Source of the DNA: an uncultured Lachnospiraceae bacterium
GTDB taxonomy: Bacteria > Bacillota > Clostridia > Oscillospirales > CAG-272
Assembly (NCBI GenBank): GCA_964490165.1
Contig: CAZBAR010000008.1
Span: 915-64,914, forward strand
Direction: 5' to 3'
DNA length: 64,000 nucleotides
Part shown: positions 54,995-59,700 of the stretch, piece by piece
Layout: each line of letters opens with the position of its first letter
Position numbering within the stretch: the first letter of the stretch is position 1
Program-made: the position numbers and the translations under genes
Notes under the pieces: generated by a model
Told to the model about the DNA's origin: nothing
The model's database searches: none
What the model saw: the letters and a program-made list of their open reading frames with translations, nothing else

Positions 54995-55261
54995 TTACTT
55001 TCTCAGGCCGAGCTTTTCAACGATAGCGCGGTAACGCTCGATGTCGATCTTCTGAAGATATGCAAGAAGATTACGGCGGTGGCCGACCATCTTAAGAAGT
55101 CCGCGGCCGGAGTGATAGTCCTTCTTGTTCTGCTTCATATGCTCGGTAAGGGTCTTGATTCTGTAGGTCAGAATAGCGATCTGAACCTCGGGGGAACCTG
55201 TGTCACCCTCATGAGTCTTGTACTCTTCGATGATCTTTGCTTTTTCTTCTTTGGTAATCAT
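54995..55261 (-). CDS. rpsO: 30S ribosomal protein S15
   Basis: [66 protein letters not shown] 55261 lies 6 nt after GAGGTG. Confidence 0.95.
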
Positions 55262-55373
55262 TGTTTTCACCTCTTAAAAATATTACAAAAACCGTGCATC
55301 TCAGGCAGCGGCGGGTGAAAGCTCCTCTGAAAGGACCTGTCTCCGCAGTCCGGGACGCCGATATTGCCTGTAT

Positions 55374-55402
55374 ATTGTATCACAACAAAGCGGCGTTGTA
55401 AA
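55374..55402 (-). promoter_or_regulatory. Candidate promoter of rpsO
   Basis: Minus strand TTTACA-17 nt-TACAAT, leaving a ~105-nt leader before the rpsO ATG. Confidence 0.55.
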
Positions 55403-55436
55403 GAGCTTTTTCGCAATTTTCCTTTGTTTTATTTAT

Positions 55437-55817
55437 TCATCTTGACTTCGGACGAAAAAAGCTTCGCCGAAGCACCATACAGCCTGCAAATATCAGCATT
55501 GCGCCGAACAGTTTGCGGATCAACCCGGGATCACAGACCGACGCCGTCAGCGAGCCCATATATGCAAACAGCATTCCTACCGACGAGCAGAACAGAATGG
55601 CAGGATAGTTTATTTTTCTTTTTACGGAATGGTAGAACAGCGACGCTGCCGACGCGAAAATAAAGAAATAAAGATTTACGCCTTGCGCACTCAGCTGATC
55701 CACGCCTCGCAAAAGAGTCAGATATATGACCAAAAGTCCCCCGCCGCCGATACCCATTCCCGACAGTGCCCCGATCAGAAACGCCGCAATAATATCAGCA
55801 ATTATCATACAAGCCAC
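55437..55817 (-). CDS. TauE/SafE-family membrane protein, half-size (126 aa)
   Basis: Four predicted TM helices. GALSGMGIGGGGLLVIYL is typical of TauE/SafE. No partner half-gene lies adjacent. Confidence 0.6.
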   Translation of the reverse strand: MACMIIADIIAAFLIGALSGMGIGGGGLLVIYLTLLRGVDQLSAQGVNLYFFIFASAASLFYHSVKRKINYPAILFCSSVGMLFAYMGSLTASVCDPGLIRKLFGAMLIFAGCMVLRRSFFRPKSR

Positions 55818-55980
55818 ACACTTTCTTTCATATTTATATTAGTTTGCACAGCGGAAGAAGATACAATTCAATTTTTTTAGAACAAAATGTTCTATATGGC
55901 AAATTCCGGCTTGTGTTCTGATATAATTGCCTTACAGATCAAAAGCATCGAATAGATTCAAACAGAAAGGCAGATATGAA

Positions 55981-56238
55981 ATGAGTAAAATGACTGATCG
56001 CGTTGACAAGCTGATGGCTGATATGAATCGGCTGCCTCTGAAAGCGAAAGACGCAATGATATGGCTGATTGAAAATATAGATATTGTAAATGAAATAACA
56101 GATGGTGAAAATCTTACTCCCGAAGCAGCAGAAAAATATCAAAAAATAGCTTTAGAAAAAGAAGATTTTGTAATGTGGGGACTGATACAATATCAACAAA
56201 TCAAAATAGGTGTTGACAAAACGGAAAAAAACGTGTAA
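55981..56238 (+). CDS. Hypothetical protein (85 aa)
   Basis: MSKMTDRVDKLMADMNRLPLKAKDAMIWLIENIDIVNEI... The track ORF starts at 55927, but ATG 55981 has a weak purine-rich stretch upstream. No family was recognised. Confidence 0.4.
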   Translation: MSKMTDRVDKLMADMNRLPLKAKDAMIWLIENIDIVNEITDGENLTPEAAEKYQKIALEKEDFVMWGLIQYQQIKIGVDKTEKNV

Positions 56239-56252
56239 AATAAAGGTGTAAG
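56224..56252 (+). promoter_or_regulatory. Promoter of the candidate antisense sRNA
   Basis: TTGACA-17 nt-TAAAAT. The -10 element overlaps the stop codon of the 85-aa ORF. Confidence 0.6.
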
Positions 56253-56258
56253 AGCTAC

Positions 56259-56349
56259 CGGAGACGGTTGCTCCCTTCTAAACGATTAAAGAAATAACCG
56301 CTAAGTTGGTCGCTGGGCGGTTATTTCTTTTTATTTTCATGATTTATTA
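56259..56349 (+). ncRNA. Candidate antisense (antitoxin) sRNA, ~90 nt, convergent with the toxin mRNA
   Basis: The TTGACA-17-TAAAAT promoter (56224-56252) predicts a +1 at G56259. A hairpin GAAATAACCGC...GCGGTTATTTC followed by a T-run ends near 56349. The RNA is fully complementary to the 3' UTR and last codons of the peptide mRNA. Confidence 0.5.
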
Positions 56350-56424
56350 TACAATTCACTAATGCAACAATAAATGTAGCTAACAGTATCAACTGTTCGA
56401 GTGTTATGTACATTATAACCACCT
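56332..56424 (-). CDS. Candidate type I toxin: 30-aa hydrophobic peptide MYITLEQLILLATFIVALVNCIINHENKKK
   Basis: Not in the >=60-aa track. ATG lies 8 nt after GAGGGGAGG. A single TM-length hydrophobic stretch is followed by a Lys tail. It has its own near-consensus promoter and extensive flanking RNA structure. Confidence 0.6.
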
Positions 56425-56526
56425 CCCCTCGTTTATGAAGGGAGATATAAAAGAAATATATTCCCTTCTGTTAGGAAGGGAGCAACCGCCACCGTTTGAT
56501 AGCTCTTACGCTGATATTATACCACT

Positions 56527-56555
56527 GAATGTCGAATTTTGTAATATATTACTTA
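56527..56555 (-). promoter_or_regulatory. Promoter of the candidate toxin mRNA
   Basis: Minus strand TTACAA-17 nt-(TGg)TATAAT. Predicted +1 is G56520. Confidence 0.6.
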
Positions 56556-56576
56556 TCCAATTACCTTTTAAGGCCC

Positions 56577-56665
56577 CTCGAAAACCTTTTGAATAAACCA
56601 TTTTCCTGAAAGGTTTTCGGGGGGTCGGGGGACTTTTCCTCAAAAAGTCCTCCGATACTTATTCC
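56577..56665. repeat. Intergenic repeat, family 2 (copy I, extended)
   Basis: CCCCTCGAAAACCTTT..AAAGGTTTTCGGGGGG long hairpin followed by GGGGGACTTTTCCTCAAAAAGTCCTCC. Confidence 0.65.
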
Positions 56666-56714
56666 AAACAAAAAGCTATCCGCCGATACGGCGGATAGCT
56701 TTTTATTTATCAGC

Positions 56715-59700
56715 TTATTCGTAAAGCTTGCCCATCTTCTGGAGTCTTTCGTATCTTGCCTTTGCAGCTGCCTCTGCCTTTGCGAAGAGCTGTGCGCTTC
56801 TCTCGGGGAAGGACTGTGCAAGACGAGCGTAACGAGCCTCGTTCTTGATGAATTCCTGATAGTCGCCGGTAGGCTCCTTGGAATCTATAGTAAGCTTGTT
56901 TGATTCAAGGGTAGGATTGTATCTGAACATATGCCAGTAACCTGCCTCAACTGCCTTCTTCATCTCGAGCTGGCAGTTCTGCATTCCGCCCTTCTTAATG
57001 CCGTGCATCTCGCAGGGTGCGTAGCCGATGATCAGAGAAGGACCGTGGTAAGCCTCAGCTTCCTTCATTGCCTTCAGAGTCTGATTCATGTCAGCGCCCA
57101 TAGCGATCTGTGCAACGTAAACGTAGCCGTAGGACATAGCGATCTCTGCAAGGTTCTTCTTGCCGATAGCCTTACCTGCTGCTGCGAACTGTGCAACCTG
57201 ACCGATGTTGGAAGCCTTGGAAGCCTGACCGCCGGTATTGGAGTAAACCTCGGTATCGAATACCATAACGTTTACGTCCTCGCCGCTTGCAAGTACGTGG
57301 TCAAGACCGCCGAAGCCGATATCGTATGCCCAGCCGTCGCCGCCGAAGATCCACACGGACTTCTTGGACAGATAATCCTTCTCAGCGAGGATCTTCACTC
57401 TGAGACCCTTGCAGCAATCGCAGGTGCAAGCCTCAAGCATTGCAACGAGAGCCTTTGTAGCCTCAGTGTTCTTCTCGCCGTCATCAAGAGTATCGAGATA
57501 TGCGTCGATAACAGCCTTCTTCTCGTCGTCGCTTACGATCTCGCGAAGCTCCTTAACGTAGCCTACAAGCTTCTCGCGGATAGTCTTCTGACCGAGAGCC
57601 ATACCGAGACCGTGCTCAGCGTTATCCTCGAACAGGGAGTTAGCCCATGCGGGACCCTTGCCTGTCTCGCGGTTTACGGTGTAAGGAGTTGAAGGTGCGC
57701 TGCCGCCCCAGATAGAGGAGCATCCGGTAGCGTTGGATATATACATTCTCTCGCCAAAGAGCTGAGTAATGATACGAGCGTAAGAAGTCTCTGCACAGCC
57801 TGCGCATGAGCCGGAGAACTCGAGCAGGGGCTGTTTGAACTGGCTACCCTTAACGGTTGCGTTGATAAGCTCGGGCTTTTCGCTGACATTTGCAACAGCA
57901 TAGTCAAATACTGCCTGCTGGTCAAGCTGAGTAGCCTGAGGAACCATCTCGATAGCTCTCTTTTCGGGCTTTGTGGGACAAACCTTAACACAGAGGGTAC
58001 AGCCCATACAGTCAAGAGGACTGACAGCCATAGTGAACTTATAATTTGTCTTAACAACAGGTCTTGCAGCGAACTTGGTCTGTGCGGGAGCCTTAGCTGC
58101 CTCGTCCTCAGTCATAGCGAAGGGACGGATGGTAGCGTGAGGACATACAAACGCACACTGGTTACACTGAATACAGTTTTCTGCGTGCCATACGGGAACC
58201 ATAACTGCAACGCCGCGCTTCTCATATGCGGCAGCGCCCTGCGGGAATGTACCGTCTGCCATATCCTTGAATGCGGAAACGGGCAGGCTGTCGCCGTCCA
58301 TCTTGCCTACAGGAGTAACAACAGTGTTGACAAACTTAACAAGCTCTTCTCTCTCGCCGACTACAGGAGCATCGGGAGCAGTCTCGCCTGCGTTCTTCCA
58401 CTCAGCGGGAACGTCTACCTTTACAAGCGCGCCTGCGCCCATATCGATAGCCTTATGGTTCTGAGCAACGACTTCCTCGCCGAACTTGGAGTAGGACTTG
58501 GTAGCCATATACTTCATATATTCAACAGCCTCGTCCAGGGGCATGATCTTTGCAAGCGCGAAGAATGCGGACTGGAGAATGGTGTTCTTAACCTTGGGAT
58601 TGCCTACCTCGTTCTTAGCAATAGCGGTAGCGTTGATGATATAGAACTGAACATCGTTATTTGCGATGTAGGACTTAACGGAAGCGGGCAGATGCTCGTC
58701 CAGCTCCTCGGGAGTCCACTGGCAGTCAAGCAGGAATGTGCCGCCGGGCTTTACATCGTTTACGATCTTATATCCCTTGAGGATGTAAGAGGGGTTATGG
58801 CAAGCAACAAAGTTTGCCTTGTTGATGTAGTAAGGGCTCTTAATAGCCTTGTCACCGAAGCGCAGGTGGGAAATTGTGATACCGCCTGTCTTCTTGGAGT
58901 CATACTGGAAGTATGCCTGAATATACTTATCGGTATGGTCGCCGATGATCTTGATAGAGTTCTTGTTAGCACCAACGGTACCGTCGCCGCCCAGGCCCCA
59001 GAACTTGCACGCGATAGTGCCGGCAGGAGCGGTATCGGGAGCGGGCTTCTCTTCAAGAGAAAGACCGGTAACATCGTCTACGATGCCGATAGTAAAGTTG
59101 TTCTTGGGAGCGTCTGCGTTGAGGTTCTCGTAAACTGCGAAAACGGAAGCAGGGGTTGTGTCCTTAGAACCGAGACCGTAACGGCCGCCTACAACAGTCT
59201 TGTCAGTTACGCCCTTGGAAGCAAGAGCAGCAACAACGTCAAGATACAGAGGCTCGCCCAGTGCGCCGGGCTCCTTTGTTCTGTCGAGAACTGCGATCTT
59301 CTTTGCAGTTTCGGGAATAGCCTTAAGAAGGTTATCAGCAACGAAAGGTCTGTAAAGACGGACCTTAACAAGACCTACCTTTTCGCCTGCTGCGTTCATG
59401 TAGTCGATGACCTCTTCTGCAACGTCGCAGATAGAGCCCATAGCAATGATAACGCGGTCAGCGTCAGGTGCGCCGTAGTAGTTAAAGGGCTTGTAGTCTG
59501 TACCCAGCTTAGCGTTTACCTTATCCATGTACTTCTCAACGATCGCGTGAAGTGCGTCATAGTAGGGGTTGCAAGCCTCTCTGTGCTGGAAGAAGATATC
59601 GCCGTTTTCAGCGGAGCCGCGGAGAACGGGATGCTCGGGGTTGATAGAACGCTTTCTGAACGCGTCAACAGCGTCCATATCTACCATTTCCTTCAGGTCC

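What the first reader, a model, noticed from the sequence alone, without database searches (positions are those of the whole stretch)
56213..56560. Compact candidate type I toxin-antitoxin module: a 30-aa hydrophobic peptide mRNA with complementary 5'/3' ends and a convergent antisense sRNA
No ORF of 60 aa or more explains this ~350-bp stretch, yet it is densely organised. On the minus strand there is a near-consensus extended -10 promoter (TTACAA-17-TGgTATAAT, 56555-56527). Its predicted +1 is G56520. The transcript starts GUAAGAGCUAUCAAACGGUGGCGGUUGCUCCCUUC. The Shine-Dalgarno GAGGGGAGG can pair with an upstream CUCCCUUC in a hairpin (56434-56455). A 30-codon ORF follows (56424-56332): MYITLEQLILLATFIVALVNCIINHENKKK, one TM-length hydrophobic helix with a Lys tail. 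The transcript's 3' region, the complement of 56259-56289, can pair with its own 5' end through perfect 10-bp and 14-bp helices around an internal loop. On the plus strand a second promoter (TTGACA-17-TAAAAT, 56224-56252) predicts a +1 at G56259. That RNA begins with the same GUAAGAGCUA...CGGUUGCUCCCUUC motif and ends at a hairpin plus U-run near 56349. The result is a ~90-nt RNA perfectly antisense to the peptide mRNA 3' UTR and its last ~6 codons. The RNA also mimics the mRNA 5' end, so it could compete with the 5'/3' closure. Three features are hallmarks of type I TA loci such as hok/Sok, bsrG/SR4, txpA/RatA and fst: a small hydrophobic peptide, SD sequestration and long-range 5'/3' pairing, and a 3'-overlapping antisense RNA. 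The specific sequence family is not one I can name with certainty.
Basis: partly seen in the sequence, partly recalled or inferred. Interest (0 to 1): 0.8.

Follow-up and report, generated by a model that had tools for sequence, protein, structure and literature searches.

The report
Type I toxin-antitoxin module, Hol_Tox/TxpA-like
This 330-bp stretch is very likely a small "toxin plus antisense-RNA antidote" gene pair of a known general kind (TxpA/BsrG/SprG-like); it belongs to a previously undescribed but widespread branch in gut Clostridia and their phages, and appears to be wired like the well-studied bsrG/SR4 pair of Bacillus subtilis.

Summary
True span: 56213-56545.

- **Minus strand.** A TTACAA-17-TGgTATAAT promoter drives a highly structured mRNA (+1 G56509). 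It encodes a 30-aa hydrophobic, Lys-tailed peptide (56413-56321).
- **Plus strand.** A TTGACA-17-TAAAAT promoter drives an ~85-90-nt RNA (56248-~56335). The stem of its terminator contains the toxin's last codons and stop codon.
- **Family.** I found about 100 related modules in gut Clostridia MAGs and IMG/VR viral contigs. The ORF evolves as coding sequence. The antisense promoter is a 12/12 consensus match in 36 of 56 modules.
- **Peptide homology.** The peptides fall in or near Pfam Hol_Tox (the TxpA/SprG superfamily). The window's own peptide scores below threshold.
- **5'/3' inverted repeat.** It co-varies module by module (93% of cells paired; 17 of 25 pairs compensatory). Mismatches are biased towards G·U in the mRNA orientation.
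- **Precedent.** The same principle was shown experimentally for bsrG/SR4: a 5'-3' helix P1 whose 3' half is the antitoxin target, so that antitoxin binding frees the 5' arm and tightens SD sequestration.

Verdict: a new member (new clade) of a known kind. Transcription, toxicity and read-through of the shared hairpin remain untested.

The parts
56213..56241 (+). Antitoxin promoter: TTGACA (56213-18), 17-nt spacer, TAAAAT (56236-41). It overlaps the last codons and stop codon of the upstream 85-aa ORF.
   Evidence: 11/12 consensus match. The equivalent promoter is 12/12 in 36 and 11/12 in 13 of 56 family modules.
56248..56337 (+). Predicted antitoxin sRNA (~85-90 nt): 5' stem-loop 56252-56273 with a GAGA tetraloop, an anti-SD-like CUCCCUUC at 56271-56278, a single-stranded spacer, then the terminator (stem 56288-56301 / 56317-56330 plus U-run).
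   Evidence: Fold -34.4 kcal/mol, z = -4.8. CM R1 hit 56249-56332, 78 bits, E = 2e-17. The terminator stem shows compensatory AU<->GC changes.
56516..56544 (-). Toxin promoter: TTACAA (56544-39), 17-nt spacer, extended -10 TGgTATAAT (56524-16). Predicted +1 is G56509.
   Evidence: L002 has TTGACA-18-TGaTATAAT at the same place. The family toxin promoters score 11-12/12 in 40 of 56 modules.
56475..56509 (-). mRNA 5' arm (5' half of the P1-like helix): GUAAGAGCUAU (56509-499), bulge CAAA, CGGUGG (56494-89), CGGUUGCUCCCUUC (56488-75). It contains anti-SD copy 1.
   Evidence: Arm covariation.
56462..56481 (-). Hairpin H1: anti-SD1 UCCCUUC (56481-75) paired with a pseudo-SD GAAGGGA (56468-62). It forms only when the 5' arm is not engaged in P1.
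   Evidence: H1 is present throughout the family's 5' UTRs.
56445..56460 (-). Conserved U-rich linker (UAUAUUUCUUUUAUAU). Its function is unexplained. It is complementary to the A-rich end of the ORF.
   Evidence: (I19). The cognate vs non-cognate test was only weakly positive, p = 0.017.
56422..56444 (-). Hairpin H2: anti-SD2 CUCCCUUC (56444-37) paired with the Shine-Dalgarno GAGGGGAG(G) (56430-22).
   Evidence: The SD is predicted almost fully paired, P(unpaired) = 0.02.
56321..56413 (-). Toxin ORF, 30 aa plus stop: MYITLEQLILLATFIVALVNCIINHENKKK. One TM-length helix with a Lys tail.
   Evidence: Family conservation and coding signature. Pfam Hol_Tox 15.5 bits, E = 0.017, below the gathering score.
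56288..56330 (-). Shared hairpin holding the last Lys codons and the stop codon in its 5' arm. It is the sRNA terminator on the plus strand. On the toxin strand it corresponds to bsrG SL3 and may act as a leaky terminator (T1).
   Evidence: (I11). The toxin-strand tail is U-rich: UUAUUUCUUUAA.
56248..56282 (-). mRNA 3' arm (3' half of P1), the exact complement of the sRNA 5' stem-loop. Present only in transcripts that read through the shared hairpin.
   Evidence: P1 duplex -55.6 kcal/mol. Read-through fold -110.7 kcal/mol, z = -10.8. Covariation.
56223..56247 (-). U-rich tract (ACCUUUAUUUUACACGUUUUUUUCC) after the 3'-arm hairpin. Candidate second terminator (T2) for the full-length toxin mRNA.
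   Evidence: Inference only.

Best explanation
**What it is.** A chromosomal type I toxin-antitoxin module of the Hol_Tox / TxpA-BsrG-SprG superfamily.

**Components.** The minus strand makes an mRNA for a 30-aa membrane peptide. The plus strand makes an ~85-90-nt antisense RNA that lies wholly within the 3' part of the full-length toxin transcript.

**Proposed mechanism** (steps 1-2 are read from sequence and comparative data; steps 3-5 are inferred by analogy with bsrG/SR4):
1. The SD is locked in hairpin H2 by an adjacent anti-SD.
2. Full-length toxin mRNA reads through the hairpin that holds its stop codon. Its 3' arm then pairs with its 5' arm in a ~30-bp helix (P1-like). This removes anti-SD copy 1 from hairpin H1.
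3. The freed pseudo-SD of H1 competes for anti-SD2, so the SD is partly opened. This is the translatable form.
4. The sRNA is identical in sequence to the mRNA 5' arm and perfectly complementary to the 3' arm plus the stop-codon hairpin. It probably nucleates by loop-loop contact at the shared hairpin, then zips up and displaces the 5' arm. The 5' arm refolds into H1, and H2 closes on the SD.
5. The ~90-bp perfect duplex is a substrate for RNase III, so the mRNA is also degraded.

The net effect is SR4-like dual control of translation and stability.
For: **Coding peptide.**
- About 60 loci were found with a pattern that fixed only the SD and four codons. All of them that are not cut off by a contig end, masked by N or extended by a changed stop or C-terminal end encode 25-34-aa peptides: MYIT..., hydrophobic helix, basic tail.
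- Codon-position entropies are 1.38 / 0.68 / 1.78 bits, and only frame 1 is open.

**Homology.**
- 26 of 48 peptides hit Pfam Hol_Tox. Several exceed the gathering score (25.1-29.3 bits; 44.5 bits for a viral member with the same RNA).
- 15 of 48 hit NCBIfam PepG1.
- Fozo 2010 equates the 'holin-like toxin' annotation with the TxpA family.

**Antisense RNA.**
- Consensus promoter at a fixed distance, a GNRA/AUGA-capped 5' stem-loop, and a terminator with compensatory changes.
- The CM gives 78 bits in the window, 75 bits in L001 and 40-68 bits in about 35 viral contigs.

**P1 helix.**
- Cognate vs non-cognate arms: -44.2 vs -35.0 kcal/mol, p < 2e-4.
- True orientation vs mirror image: p = 3e-7 and 6e-5 in two independent sets.
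- 93.2% of cells paired, 17 of 25 pairs compensatory, 0 of 500 shuffles as high.
- sRNA loop AUGA or AUAGA is tracked by mRNA GUGG or GUAGG.

**Switch.**
- Median SD P(unpaired): 0.013 (terminated), 0.077 (closed full-length), 0.013 (plus sRNA). 26 modules rise and 6 fall, p = 0.0013.
- The window dimer fold shows the 5' arm released and H1 plus H2 formed.

**Precedent.** bsrG helix P1 (nt 1-35 with nt 232-262), with SR4 binding the 3' half, freeing nt 1-33 and extending the SD helix from 4 to 8 bp (PMC3834814).

**Natural history typical of type I TA.**
- Tandem and multi-copy loci (L036, L049, L062, L067).
- An orphan antitoxin with the toxin deleted (L001).
- A stop-codon variant (L002).
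- Patchy, phage-associated distribution.
Against: - No expression data of any kind: both promoters, both RNA ends and the toxicity are predictions.
- The window's own peptide is below the Pfam gathering score (15.5 vs 23.3 bits) and hits no NCBIfam model.
- On the toxin strand the shared hairpin is followed by a U-rich tail (UUAUUUCUUUAA). It could therefore terminate most toxin transcripts before the 3' arm is made, and P1 would then exist only in a minority of transcripts.
- The predicted SD opening in the closed form is modest, and it reverses in 6 of 35 modules.
- The P1 alignment was anchored by similarity between the arms, so its pair counts lean towards the structure.
- Modules in the set are phylogenetically related, so p-values overstate independence.
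- Some relatives of this superfamily were not toxic when overexpressed: YhzE-2 in B. subtilis, and TxpA in E. coli (Fozo 2010).
Confidence: 0.7

Rival explanations
1. Plain RatA/SprF-type module. The toxin mRNA terminates at the shared bidirectional hairpin, and the sRNA acts only through the ~45-50-nt terminal overlap (RNase III-mediated decay). The similar 5' ends of the two RNAs are just parallel 5' stabilising stem-loops, kept alike by common descent or gene conversion, with no 5'/3' helix in vivo.
For: - The toxin-strand tail after the hairpin is as U-rich as the sRNA's own tail: 7.3 U in 12 nt.
- txpA/RatA works mainly through degradation (PMC4147584).
- The SD is already locked by H2 without any sRNA.
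Against: - The helix is significantly more stable in the mRNA orientation than in its mirror image, in two independent sets.
- Differences between the arms are G·U-compatible 95:18 and 30:9.
- The arms keep a fixed bulge and hexamer difference while co-varying in 8-14-nt blocks, which by my own knowledge of recombination is probably too short for recombinational homogenisation.
- The homologous position in bsrG is read through.
Confidence: 0.17
2. SprA1AS-like trans action. The sRNA's non-overlapping 5' domain carries an anti-SD (CUCCCUUC, 56271-56278) that pairs directly with the toxin SD (GAGGGGAG) and blocks ribosome binding. The 3' overlap serves only for docking.
For: - The anti-SD motif is conserved in the sRNA across the family as CUYCC.
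- It is complementary to the SD.
- There is a precedent in S. aureus SprA1/SprA1AS (cited in PMC6563280).
Against: - In the sRNA the motif is partly buried in its own 5' stem-loop.
- The SD is already paired with a cis anti-SD of equal strength.
- In the dimer fold the 5' domain pairs with the mRNA 3' arm, not with the SD.
- The module-specific covariation involves positions far outside the anti-SD.
Confidence: 0.06
3. Not a toxin-antitoxin pair. The peptide is a harmless or regulatory small membrane protein (compare ComI or YhzE-2) whose expression happens to be under antisense control.
For: - 10 of 48 peptides weakly hit NCBIfam ComI.
- YhzE-2 was not toxic despite having an antisense RNA.
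- The window peptide is only a sub-threshold Hol_Tox match.
Against: - The elaborate multi-layer silencing, with two anti-SD hairpins, P1 and a constitutive-consensus antisense promoter, is typical of genes whose product is harmful.
- In L001 the toxin is deleted but the antitoxin retained.
- Loci are tandem, multi-copy and phage-borne.
- Homology to PepG1/TxpA-type toxins, which are experimentally toxic.
Confidence: 0.07

Closest known systems
bsrG/SR4 of Bacillus subtilis SPbeta (TxpA/BsrG family)
   Same: - Convergent genes that overlap at their 3' ends.
- The stop codon lies in the 5' part of a hairpin that is complementary to the antitoxin's terminator.
- A long 5'-3' helix (P1) whose 3' half is complementary to the antitoxin.
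- The SD sits in a local helix.
- Antitoxin binding frees the 5' arm and tightens SD sequestration, and RNase III cleaves the duplex (PMC3834814).

The predicted behaviour of the window locus matches this step for step.
   Different: - The antitoxin here is about 85-90 nt and is entirely complementary to the full-length mRNA. SR4 is ~180 nt and has a non-complementary SL1.
- A separate toxin terminator is not obvious here: the candidate T2 is the 3'-arm hairpin plus a U-tract.
- There are two tandem anti-SD hairpins (H1 and H2) instead of one.
- The peptide is 30 aa and more similar to Hol_Tox/SprG peptides than to BsrG.
- There was no Rfam hit to any described RNA family.
sprG/SprF (S. aureus) and txpA/RatA (B. 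subtilis, E. faecalis EF3263)
   Same: - The peptide family is related: NCBIfam PepG1 hits, best E = 6.8e-6, aligned over the TM helix and KK tail. The Pfam Hol_Tox annotation equates to TxpA-like.
- The antisense RNA overlaps the toxin's 3' end, including the ORF end (T1TAdb).
- These systems also sit on mobile or prophage DNA.
   Different: - Scores are far below the PepG1 equivalog cut-off (25.6 vs 70 bits).
- The hosts are uncultured gut Clostridia rather than Bacilli.
- The antitoxin is shorter than RatA (222 nt, from my own knowledge); I have no length for SprF.
- A 5'/3' helix is not described for these systems in the papers I could read.
par (fst RNA I / RNA II) of pAD1
   Same: - Convergent transcripts that share a bidirectional terminator.
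- The SD is sequestered in a 5' stem-loop.
- Short repeats occur near both 5' ends.
   Different: In par the repeats are direct in the DNA, so the two RNAs are complementary at their 5' ends. Here the repeats are inverted, so the two RNAs are identical there. There was no Fst Pfam hit.
hok/Sok and aapA1/IsoA1
   Same: A 5'-3' long-distance interaction in the full-length toxin mRNA controls translatability.
   Different: - In those systems the antisense RNA targets the 5' region or translation-initiation region, and the closed form is the inert one.
- Here the antisense RNA targets the 3' arm, and the closed form is predicted to be the more open one.
- Those systems are from Proteobacteria or Campylobacterota, and their peptides are unrelated.

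Membership tests
Type I toxin-antitoxin system (generic) | A small (<60 aa) hydrophobic peptide ORF that is conserved as coding sequence | tested here: met
   30 aa, one TM-length helix and a KKK tail. There are 52 unique homologous CDSs with codon-position entropies of 1.38 / 0.68 / 1.78 bits, and only frame 1 is open.
Type I toxin-antitoxin system (generic) | A cis-encoded antisense RNA gene that overlaps the toxin mRNA | tested here: met
   Predicted from sequence only. The evidence is a conserved consensus promoter, a 5' stem-loop and a terminator that overlaps the stop codon. The CM scores 78 bits in the window, and the element recurs in about 100 loci. Transcription itself was not observed.
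Type I toxin-antitoxin system (generic) | The peptide is toxic on overexpression and is neutralised by the RNA | not testable with these tools
   This needs an experiment. Indirect support comes from L001, which lost the toxin but kept the antitoxin.
Pfam PF16935 Hol_Tox (putative holin-like toxin; TxpA-like) | HMM score at or above the gathering threshold (23.3 bits) | tested here: not met
   The window peptide scores 15.5 bits, E = 0.017. Clade relatives at 50-57% identity to it do pass (25.1-29.3 bits). A viral member carrying the same antisense RNA scores 44.5 bits. Membership is therefore by transitive homology at clade level, not by the window sequence's own score.
NCBIfam NF041589 PepG1 (SprG1 toxin equivalog) | Score at or above the equivalog cut-off (70 bits) | tested here: not met
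   The best score in the clade is 25.6 bits, and the window peptide has no hit. It is a homologue-level resemblance, not an equivalog.
TxpA/BsrG-type architecture (bsrG/SR4 paradigm) | Convergent genes in which the antitoxin overlaps the toxin's 3' end, including the stop codon | tested here: met
   The stop codon (56323-56321) lies inside the sRNA terminator stem.
TxpA/BsrG-type architecture (bsrG/SR4 paradigm) | A 5'-3' helix P1 in the toxin mRNA, with its 3' half complementary to the antitoxin | tested here: inconclusive
   The helix is strongly supported in silico: -55.6 kcal/mol in the window, 93.2% of cells paired, 17 of 25 compensatory pairs, and a directional G·U bias. It requires read-through of a hairpin that is followed by a U-tract, and that could not be tested.
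TxpA/BsrG-type architecture (bsrG/SR4 paradigm) | Antitoxin binding increases SD sequestration and triggers RNase III cleavage | not testable with these tools
   Only thermodynamic prediction is available: median SD P(unpaired) goes from 0.077 to 0.013 on sRNA binding.
Fst/RNAII (par) | Direct repeats that make the 5' regions of the two RNAs complementary; Fst-type peptide | tested here: not met
   The repeats are inverted in the DNA, so the RNAs have the same sense at their 5' ends. There was no Fst_toxin Pfam hit.
Any Rfam RNA family (RatA, SR4/Bsr RNAs, Spr RNAs, etc.) | A covariance-model match | tested here: not met
   No relevant match even at E <= 10 over 55000-57500 on both strands.

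The most novel reading that the evidence does not exclude
The four-segment leader (anti-SD1 / pseudo-SD / anti-SD2 / SD), coupled to a 5'-3' helix whose 3' half is the antitoxin target, could be a general and portable RNA switch for the whole Hol_Tox superfamily, from Clostridia to Brevibacillus phages and Streptococcus satellite phages.

In this reading the full-length closed mRNA is the translatable form. The antitoxin works purely as a molecular mimic of the mRNA's own 5' end and never touches the ribosome-binding site.

On phages and satellites, such a module could act as a hair-trigger abortive-infection or superinfection-exclusion device.
Probability: 0.2. Interest if true: 0.6.

Novelty: new member of a known kind. 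Interest (0 to 1): 0.45.

Why it matters
**Distribution.** A 2019 review reports that type I toxin homologues could not be found in most Clostridial species apart from C. difficile-specific families (PMC6563280). This locus shows otherwise. A compact Hol_Tox/TxpA-like family with a recognisable ~85-nt antitoxin RNA is common in uncultured gut Clostridia/Oscillospirales MAGs (56 loci from one pattern scan). It is also common on predicted phage contigs (about 35 of 42 IMG/VR hits). Neither component is normally annotated, and no Rfam model exists for the RNA.

**Mechanism.** The family supplies about 100 natural sequence variants. Together they give comparative (covariation) support for the 5'-3' helix / antitoxin-displacement mechanism, which so far rests on biochemical probing of a single B. 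subtilis locus (bsrG/SR4).

**Practical use.** The covariance model and the peptide pattern could be used to annotate these modules in gut metagenomes and prophages.

For the window itself, the finding is an ordinary accessory-gene module, although a neatly organised one.

Tried and rejected
**Searches that found nothing.**
- The exact shared 5' motif in GTDB representative genomes gave 0 hits. A degenerate version gave 29 single-arm hits in unrelated high-GC taxa, about the ~26 I estimated for chance; rejected.
- blastn of the locus against PLSDB plasmids and INPHARED phages gave nothing relevant.
- Exact-sequence look-up of the 30-aa and 33-aa peptides: not on record.
- tblastn of the window peptide against GenBank phages gave only a chance hit.

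- The word-indexed protein search refuses queries under 40 aa. A query made by joining two variants found only the L002 variant.
- The search for related loci refuses the short peptide.
- The adjacent 85-aa ORF found no relatives in the reference genomes.

**Ideas tested and rejected.**
- MITE or mobile inverted-repeat element: only one copy in the 64-kb window, and the arms start at the two predicted transcription starts.
- The plus-strand RNA being merely the 3' UTR/terminator of the 85-aa gene: the same RNA with its own 12/12 promoter occurs in dozens of unrelated contexts that lack that gene.
- H1 plus the U-rich linker as a 5'-UTR attenuator or terminator: the U-tract lies 5-6 nt from the stem, so this is not favoured.
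- The linker pairing with the A-rich ORF end: only weak support, p = 0.017, with noisy extraction.

**Left open.** The covariance model barely detects Bacilli homologues (13 bits), although reading the sequences by eye shows the same arm design.
Full report
**1. Observation**

The true layout is:
- Plus-strand promoter: TTGACA 56213-18, 17-nt spacer, TAAAAT 56236-41; +1 G56248.
- Plus-strand RNA: begins GUAAGAGCUACCGGAGACGGUUGCUCCCUUC and ends at a 14-bp hairpin (56288-301 / 56317-330) followed by UUUUUAUUUU.
- Minus-strand promoter: TTACAA 56544-39, 17-nt spacer, TGgTATAAT 56524-16; +1 G56509.
- Minus-strand transcript: begins GUAAGAGCUAUCAAACGGUGGCGGUUGCUCCCUUC.
- SD: GAGGGGAGG 56430-22.
- ORF: 56413-56321, encoding MYITLEQLILLATFIVALVNCIINHENKKK.

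The consensus scan ranks the two promoters best in the region, at 11/12 and 10/12. Predicted folds are far more stable than dinucleotide shuffles:
- sRNA: z = -4.8.
- mRNA ending at the shared hairpin: z = -6.4.
- Read-through mRNA: z = -10.8, with the 5' and 3' ends closed on each other.

**2. Relatives**

*First attempts.* No plasmid, phage or Rfam match exists for the DNA or RNA, and the exact motif is absent from reference genomes.

*Syntenic contigs.* The adjacent 85-aa ORF has only three clusters in a 5.8-billion-protein database. Their contigs gave three syntenic states:
- Copies identical to the window.
- A ~79%-related lineage (L002/L003) with the whole module. Both arms carry matching substitutions, and the stop codon has changed from TAA to TAC, giving 44 aa.
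- A ~78%-related lineage (L001) that retains the plus-strand RNA gene but has lost the toxin gene, its leader and its promoter.

*Peptide search.* An exhaustive phmmer search with the 30-aa peptide found three more relatives at 67-70% identity, in unrelated contexts. One of them is a tandem array.

*Pattern scan.* A pattern fixing only the SD and the first four codons returned 56 loci, almost all from gut Clostridia/Eubacteriales/Oscillospiraceae MAGs. Apart from copies cut off by a contig end, one masked by N and two extended by a changed stop or C-terminal end (L002 and L069), every one encodes a 25-34-aa peptide: MYIT-x-x-(E/D)-L, a hydrophobic helix, then a basic tail.

**3. The ORF is a gene**

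- Across 52 unique CDSs, outside the four fixed codons, codon position 2 is most constrained (0.68 bits) and position 3 least (1.78 bits).
- Frame 1 is open in 52 of 52. Frames 2 and 3 contain stops in 52 and 39.
- 26 of 48 peptides hit Pfam Hol_Tox, and several exceed the gathering score (25-29 bits vs 23.3).
- 15 of 48 hit NCBIfam PepG1, the SprG1 type I toxin (best E = 6.8e-6, well below its equivalog cut-off).
- 10 of 48 hit ComI.
- The window peptide itself is sub-threshold: Hol_Tox 15.5 bits, E = 0.017.
- Fozo et al. 2010 state that the 'holin-like toxin' annotation corresponds to the TxpA family, whose antitoxins (RatA, and the EF3263 antisense RNA) overlap the toxin's 3' end.

**4. The antisense RNA is a gene**

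In 56 non-redundant modules, the opposite strand carries TTGACA-17-TATAAT at a fixed distance. It scores 12/12 in 36 modules and 11/12 in 13.

The promoter is followed by:
- A 5' stem-loop, ...CACCG-(GNRA or AUGA)-CGGUUGCUYCC.
- A variable spacer.
- A terminator whose stem includes the toxin's last Lys codons and stop codon.

In the 47-sequence alignment, the terminator has compensatory AU<->GC changes (13 sequences at each of two pairs) and CG<->UA changes.

A covariance model built from this alignment gave:
- One true hit in the whole 64-kb window (56249-56332, 78 bits).
- 75 bits for the toxin-less L001 locus.
- Full-length hits of 40-68 bits in about 35 of 42 IMG/VR viral contigs that had been fetched with a terminator pattern.

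The ORFs convergent to those hits encode more diverse Hol_Tox-type peptides. One of them (MSVFETISLMIAFGMLIIAIIRKKK) is an unambiguous Hol_Tox at 44.5 bits.

**5. The 5'/3' inverted repeat**

*Conserved leader.* The toxin leader has the same parts throughout the family:
- An optional 5' hairpin.
- An arm of the form (A')-bulge-CGGUGG-CGGUUGCUYCC.
- Hairpin H1 (anti-SD with a pseudo-SD).
- A U-rich linker.
- Hairpin H2 (anti-SD with the SD).

*Relation to the sRNA.* The sRNA 5' end repeats the arm without the bulge. The toxin-strand complement of the sRNA 5' end (the mRNA '3' arm') can therefore pair with the mRNA 5' arm.

*Evidence that this pairing is selected:*
- Cognate arms pair better than non-cognate arms: -44.2 vs -35.0 kcal/mol, permutation p < 2e-4.
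- The arms share derived indels and substitutions module by module, even in viral and Bacilli-phage relatives whose arm sequences are entirely different.
- Where the arms differ, the changes are G·U-compatible in the mRNA helix 95:18 (genome set) and 30:9 (viral set).
- The helix is more stable in the true orientation than in its mirror image in 36 of 42 and 20 of 22 modules (p = 3e-7 and 6e-5).
- The mRNA hexamer GUGG or GUAGG tracks sRNA loops AUGA or AUAGA.
- On a register-anchored alignment of 24 modules, the 25-bp helix has 93.2% of cells paired (32-54% when slid) and 17 pairs with changes on both sides. It has 93 compensatory cells against 27 ± 5 in shuffles, 0 of 500.

*Caveats.* The arms were located by mutual similarity, and the modules are phylogenetically related.

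*Gene conversion.* This is an unlikely explanation, for two reasons. The identical blocks are only 8-14 nt long, which by my own knowledge of recombination is probably too short to be homogenised. And a constant bulge/hexamer difference persists across the family.

**6. Does the toxin mRNA reach its 3' arm?**

This is the weak point.

- Against: on the toxin strand, the shared hairpin is followed by UUAUUUCUUUAA, so it could terminate transcription.
- For: the complement of the sRNA 5' stem-loop folds into a hairpin (mean -10.9 kcal/mol) and is followed directly by a U-rich tract (mean 7.0 U in 13 nt). This is a plausible second terminator that would give full-length transcripts ending near the sRNA promoter.
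- For: the literature precedent supports read-through. In bsrG mRNA the stop codon lies in the 5' part of SL3, which is complementary to the SR4 terminator stem-loop (SL4). The 3' half of P1 follows it, and the toxin terminator comes after that (PMC3834814).

**7. Mechanism**

bsrG/SR4 provides the experimentally established model:
- Nt 1-35 pair with nt 232-262 to form helix P1.
- SR4 is complementary to SL3, to the 3' half of P1 and to the terminator.
- On binding, nt 1-33 become single-stranded and the SD helix grows from 4 to 8 bp. RNase III also cleaves.

The window locus is predicted to behave the same way:
- In the closed full-length RNA, H1 cannot form.
- With the sRNA bound (a predicted gain of -78.7 kcal/mol), the 5' arm refolds. 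H1 and H2 both form, and the SD is locked.
- Across 35 modules the median SD P(unpaired) is 0.013 (terminated), 0.077 (closed full-length) and 0.013 (plus sRNA). 26 modules rise and 6 fall, Wilcoxon p = 0.0013.

These are thermodynamic predictions only.

**8. Context**

- The window's S15 is 93% identical to that of a 'Candidatus Avispirillum sp.' MAG, classified as Clostridia incertae sedis.
- That genome keeps the TauE-rpsO neighbourhood but lacks both the 85-aa gene and the module.
- Several MAGs carry 2-5 copies on different contigs or in tandem.
- The module is therefore accessory, patchy and often phage-borne, as is usual for type I TA loci.

**9. Comparison and novelty**

- The locus works like bsrG/SR4, and its peptide is related to the Hol_Tox/TxpA/SprG peptides.
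- It is not an Fst/par system: the repeats are inverted, not direct.
- It is not hok-like: the antisense RNA sits at the 3' end, not the 5' end.
- No Rfam family covers the RNA.
- Reviews report that TxpA-like toxins were hardly detectable in Clostridia.
- I found no paper describing this clade or its antitoxin. The library is limited to open-access papers.

I therefore file it as a new member (a new, widespread clade) of a known kind.

Noticed in passing
window 55984-56238 (+): An 85-aa ORF (MSKMTDRVDKLM...) lies immediately upstream of the antitoxin gene, and its last codons and stop overlap the sRNA promoter. It has only three clusters in a 5.8-billion-protein database and no Pfam hit. It travels with the TA module in L001 and L002 but is absent from the nearest reference genome. 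Read-through from this gene would also end at the sRNA terminator, which could produce a longer antisense RNA.
   Followed up: partly
L001 4603-4800 (syntenic to window 56200-56560): A related lineage keeps the antitoxin promoter, RNA and terminator (CM 75 bits) but has lost about 250 bp that hold the toxin ORF, its leader and its promoter. This is an orphan antitoxin.
   Followed up: yes
L002 2218-2352 (and L003): The toxin stop codon has changed from TAA to TAC. This extends the peptide to 44 aa and introduces a mismatch in the shared hairpin. It may be a decaying or altered toxin allele.
   Followed up: partly
L036 (whole 1277-bp contig); L049, L062, L067: These loci carry tandem arrays of complete modules. 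Several MAGs (for example CAVKJG01, CAVEOF01 and JAZQKG01) carry copies on multiple contigs.
   Followed up: partly
L037 and L038 (toxin leader region): These two loci keep the peptide, H2 and the antitoxin, but the toxin's 5' arm, H1 and consensus promoter are replaced by unrelated AT-rich sequence. They are natural variants that lack the P1 5' half.
   Followed up: no
window 56574-56655: Two strong adjacent hairpins (56574-89 / 56609-24 and 56625-37 / 56643-55) lie between the toxin promoter and the PFOR terminator (56666-56708). They give sub-threshold Rfam matches (AaHKsRNA41 at 41 bits vs gathering score 97; PK-repBA at 30.5 vs 45) that are probably structural coincidence. They are not conserved in L002.
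   Followed up: no
window 55437-55817 (-): A 126-aa ORF matches only the C-terminal half of Pfam TauE (profile positions 129-235 of 237). It is either a half-size sulfite-exporter-like membrane protein or a truncated gene. It is conserved in L001, L002 and L137.
   Followed up: no
window 55208-55313 (-): There is a sub-threshold match to the Rfam ribosomal S15 leader (22.6 bits vs gathering score 39.5), overlapping the 5' end of and extending upstream of rpsO.
   Followed up: no
L217 (Brevibacillus phage Emery gp50), L219 (phage Osiris gp17), L218 (Streptococcus satellite phage Javan500): Hol_Tox-type peptides in GenBank phages and satellites are annotated 'hypothetical protein' or not annotated at all. 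They show the same design, with the antisense 5' end copying the mRNA 5' arm, but with unrelated arm sequences. In Javan500 the module sits next to the integrase.
   Followed up: partly
L094, L096, L100, L119, L125, L129 (IMG/VR contigs): Several viral-contig copies lie within about 200 nt of an end of the fetched locus. This suggests a position near a contig or prophage end.
   Followed up: no
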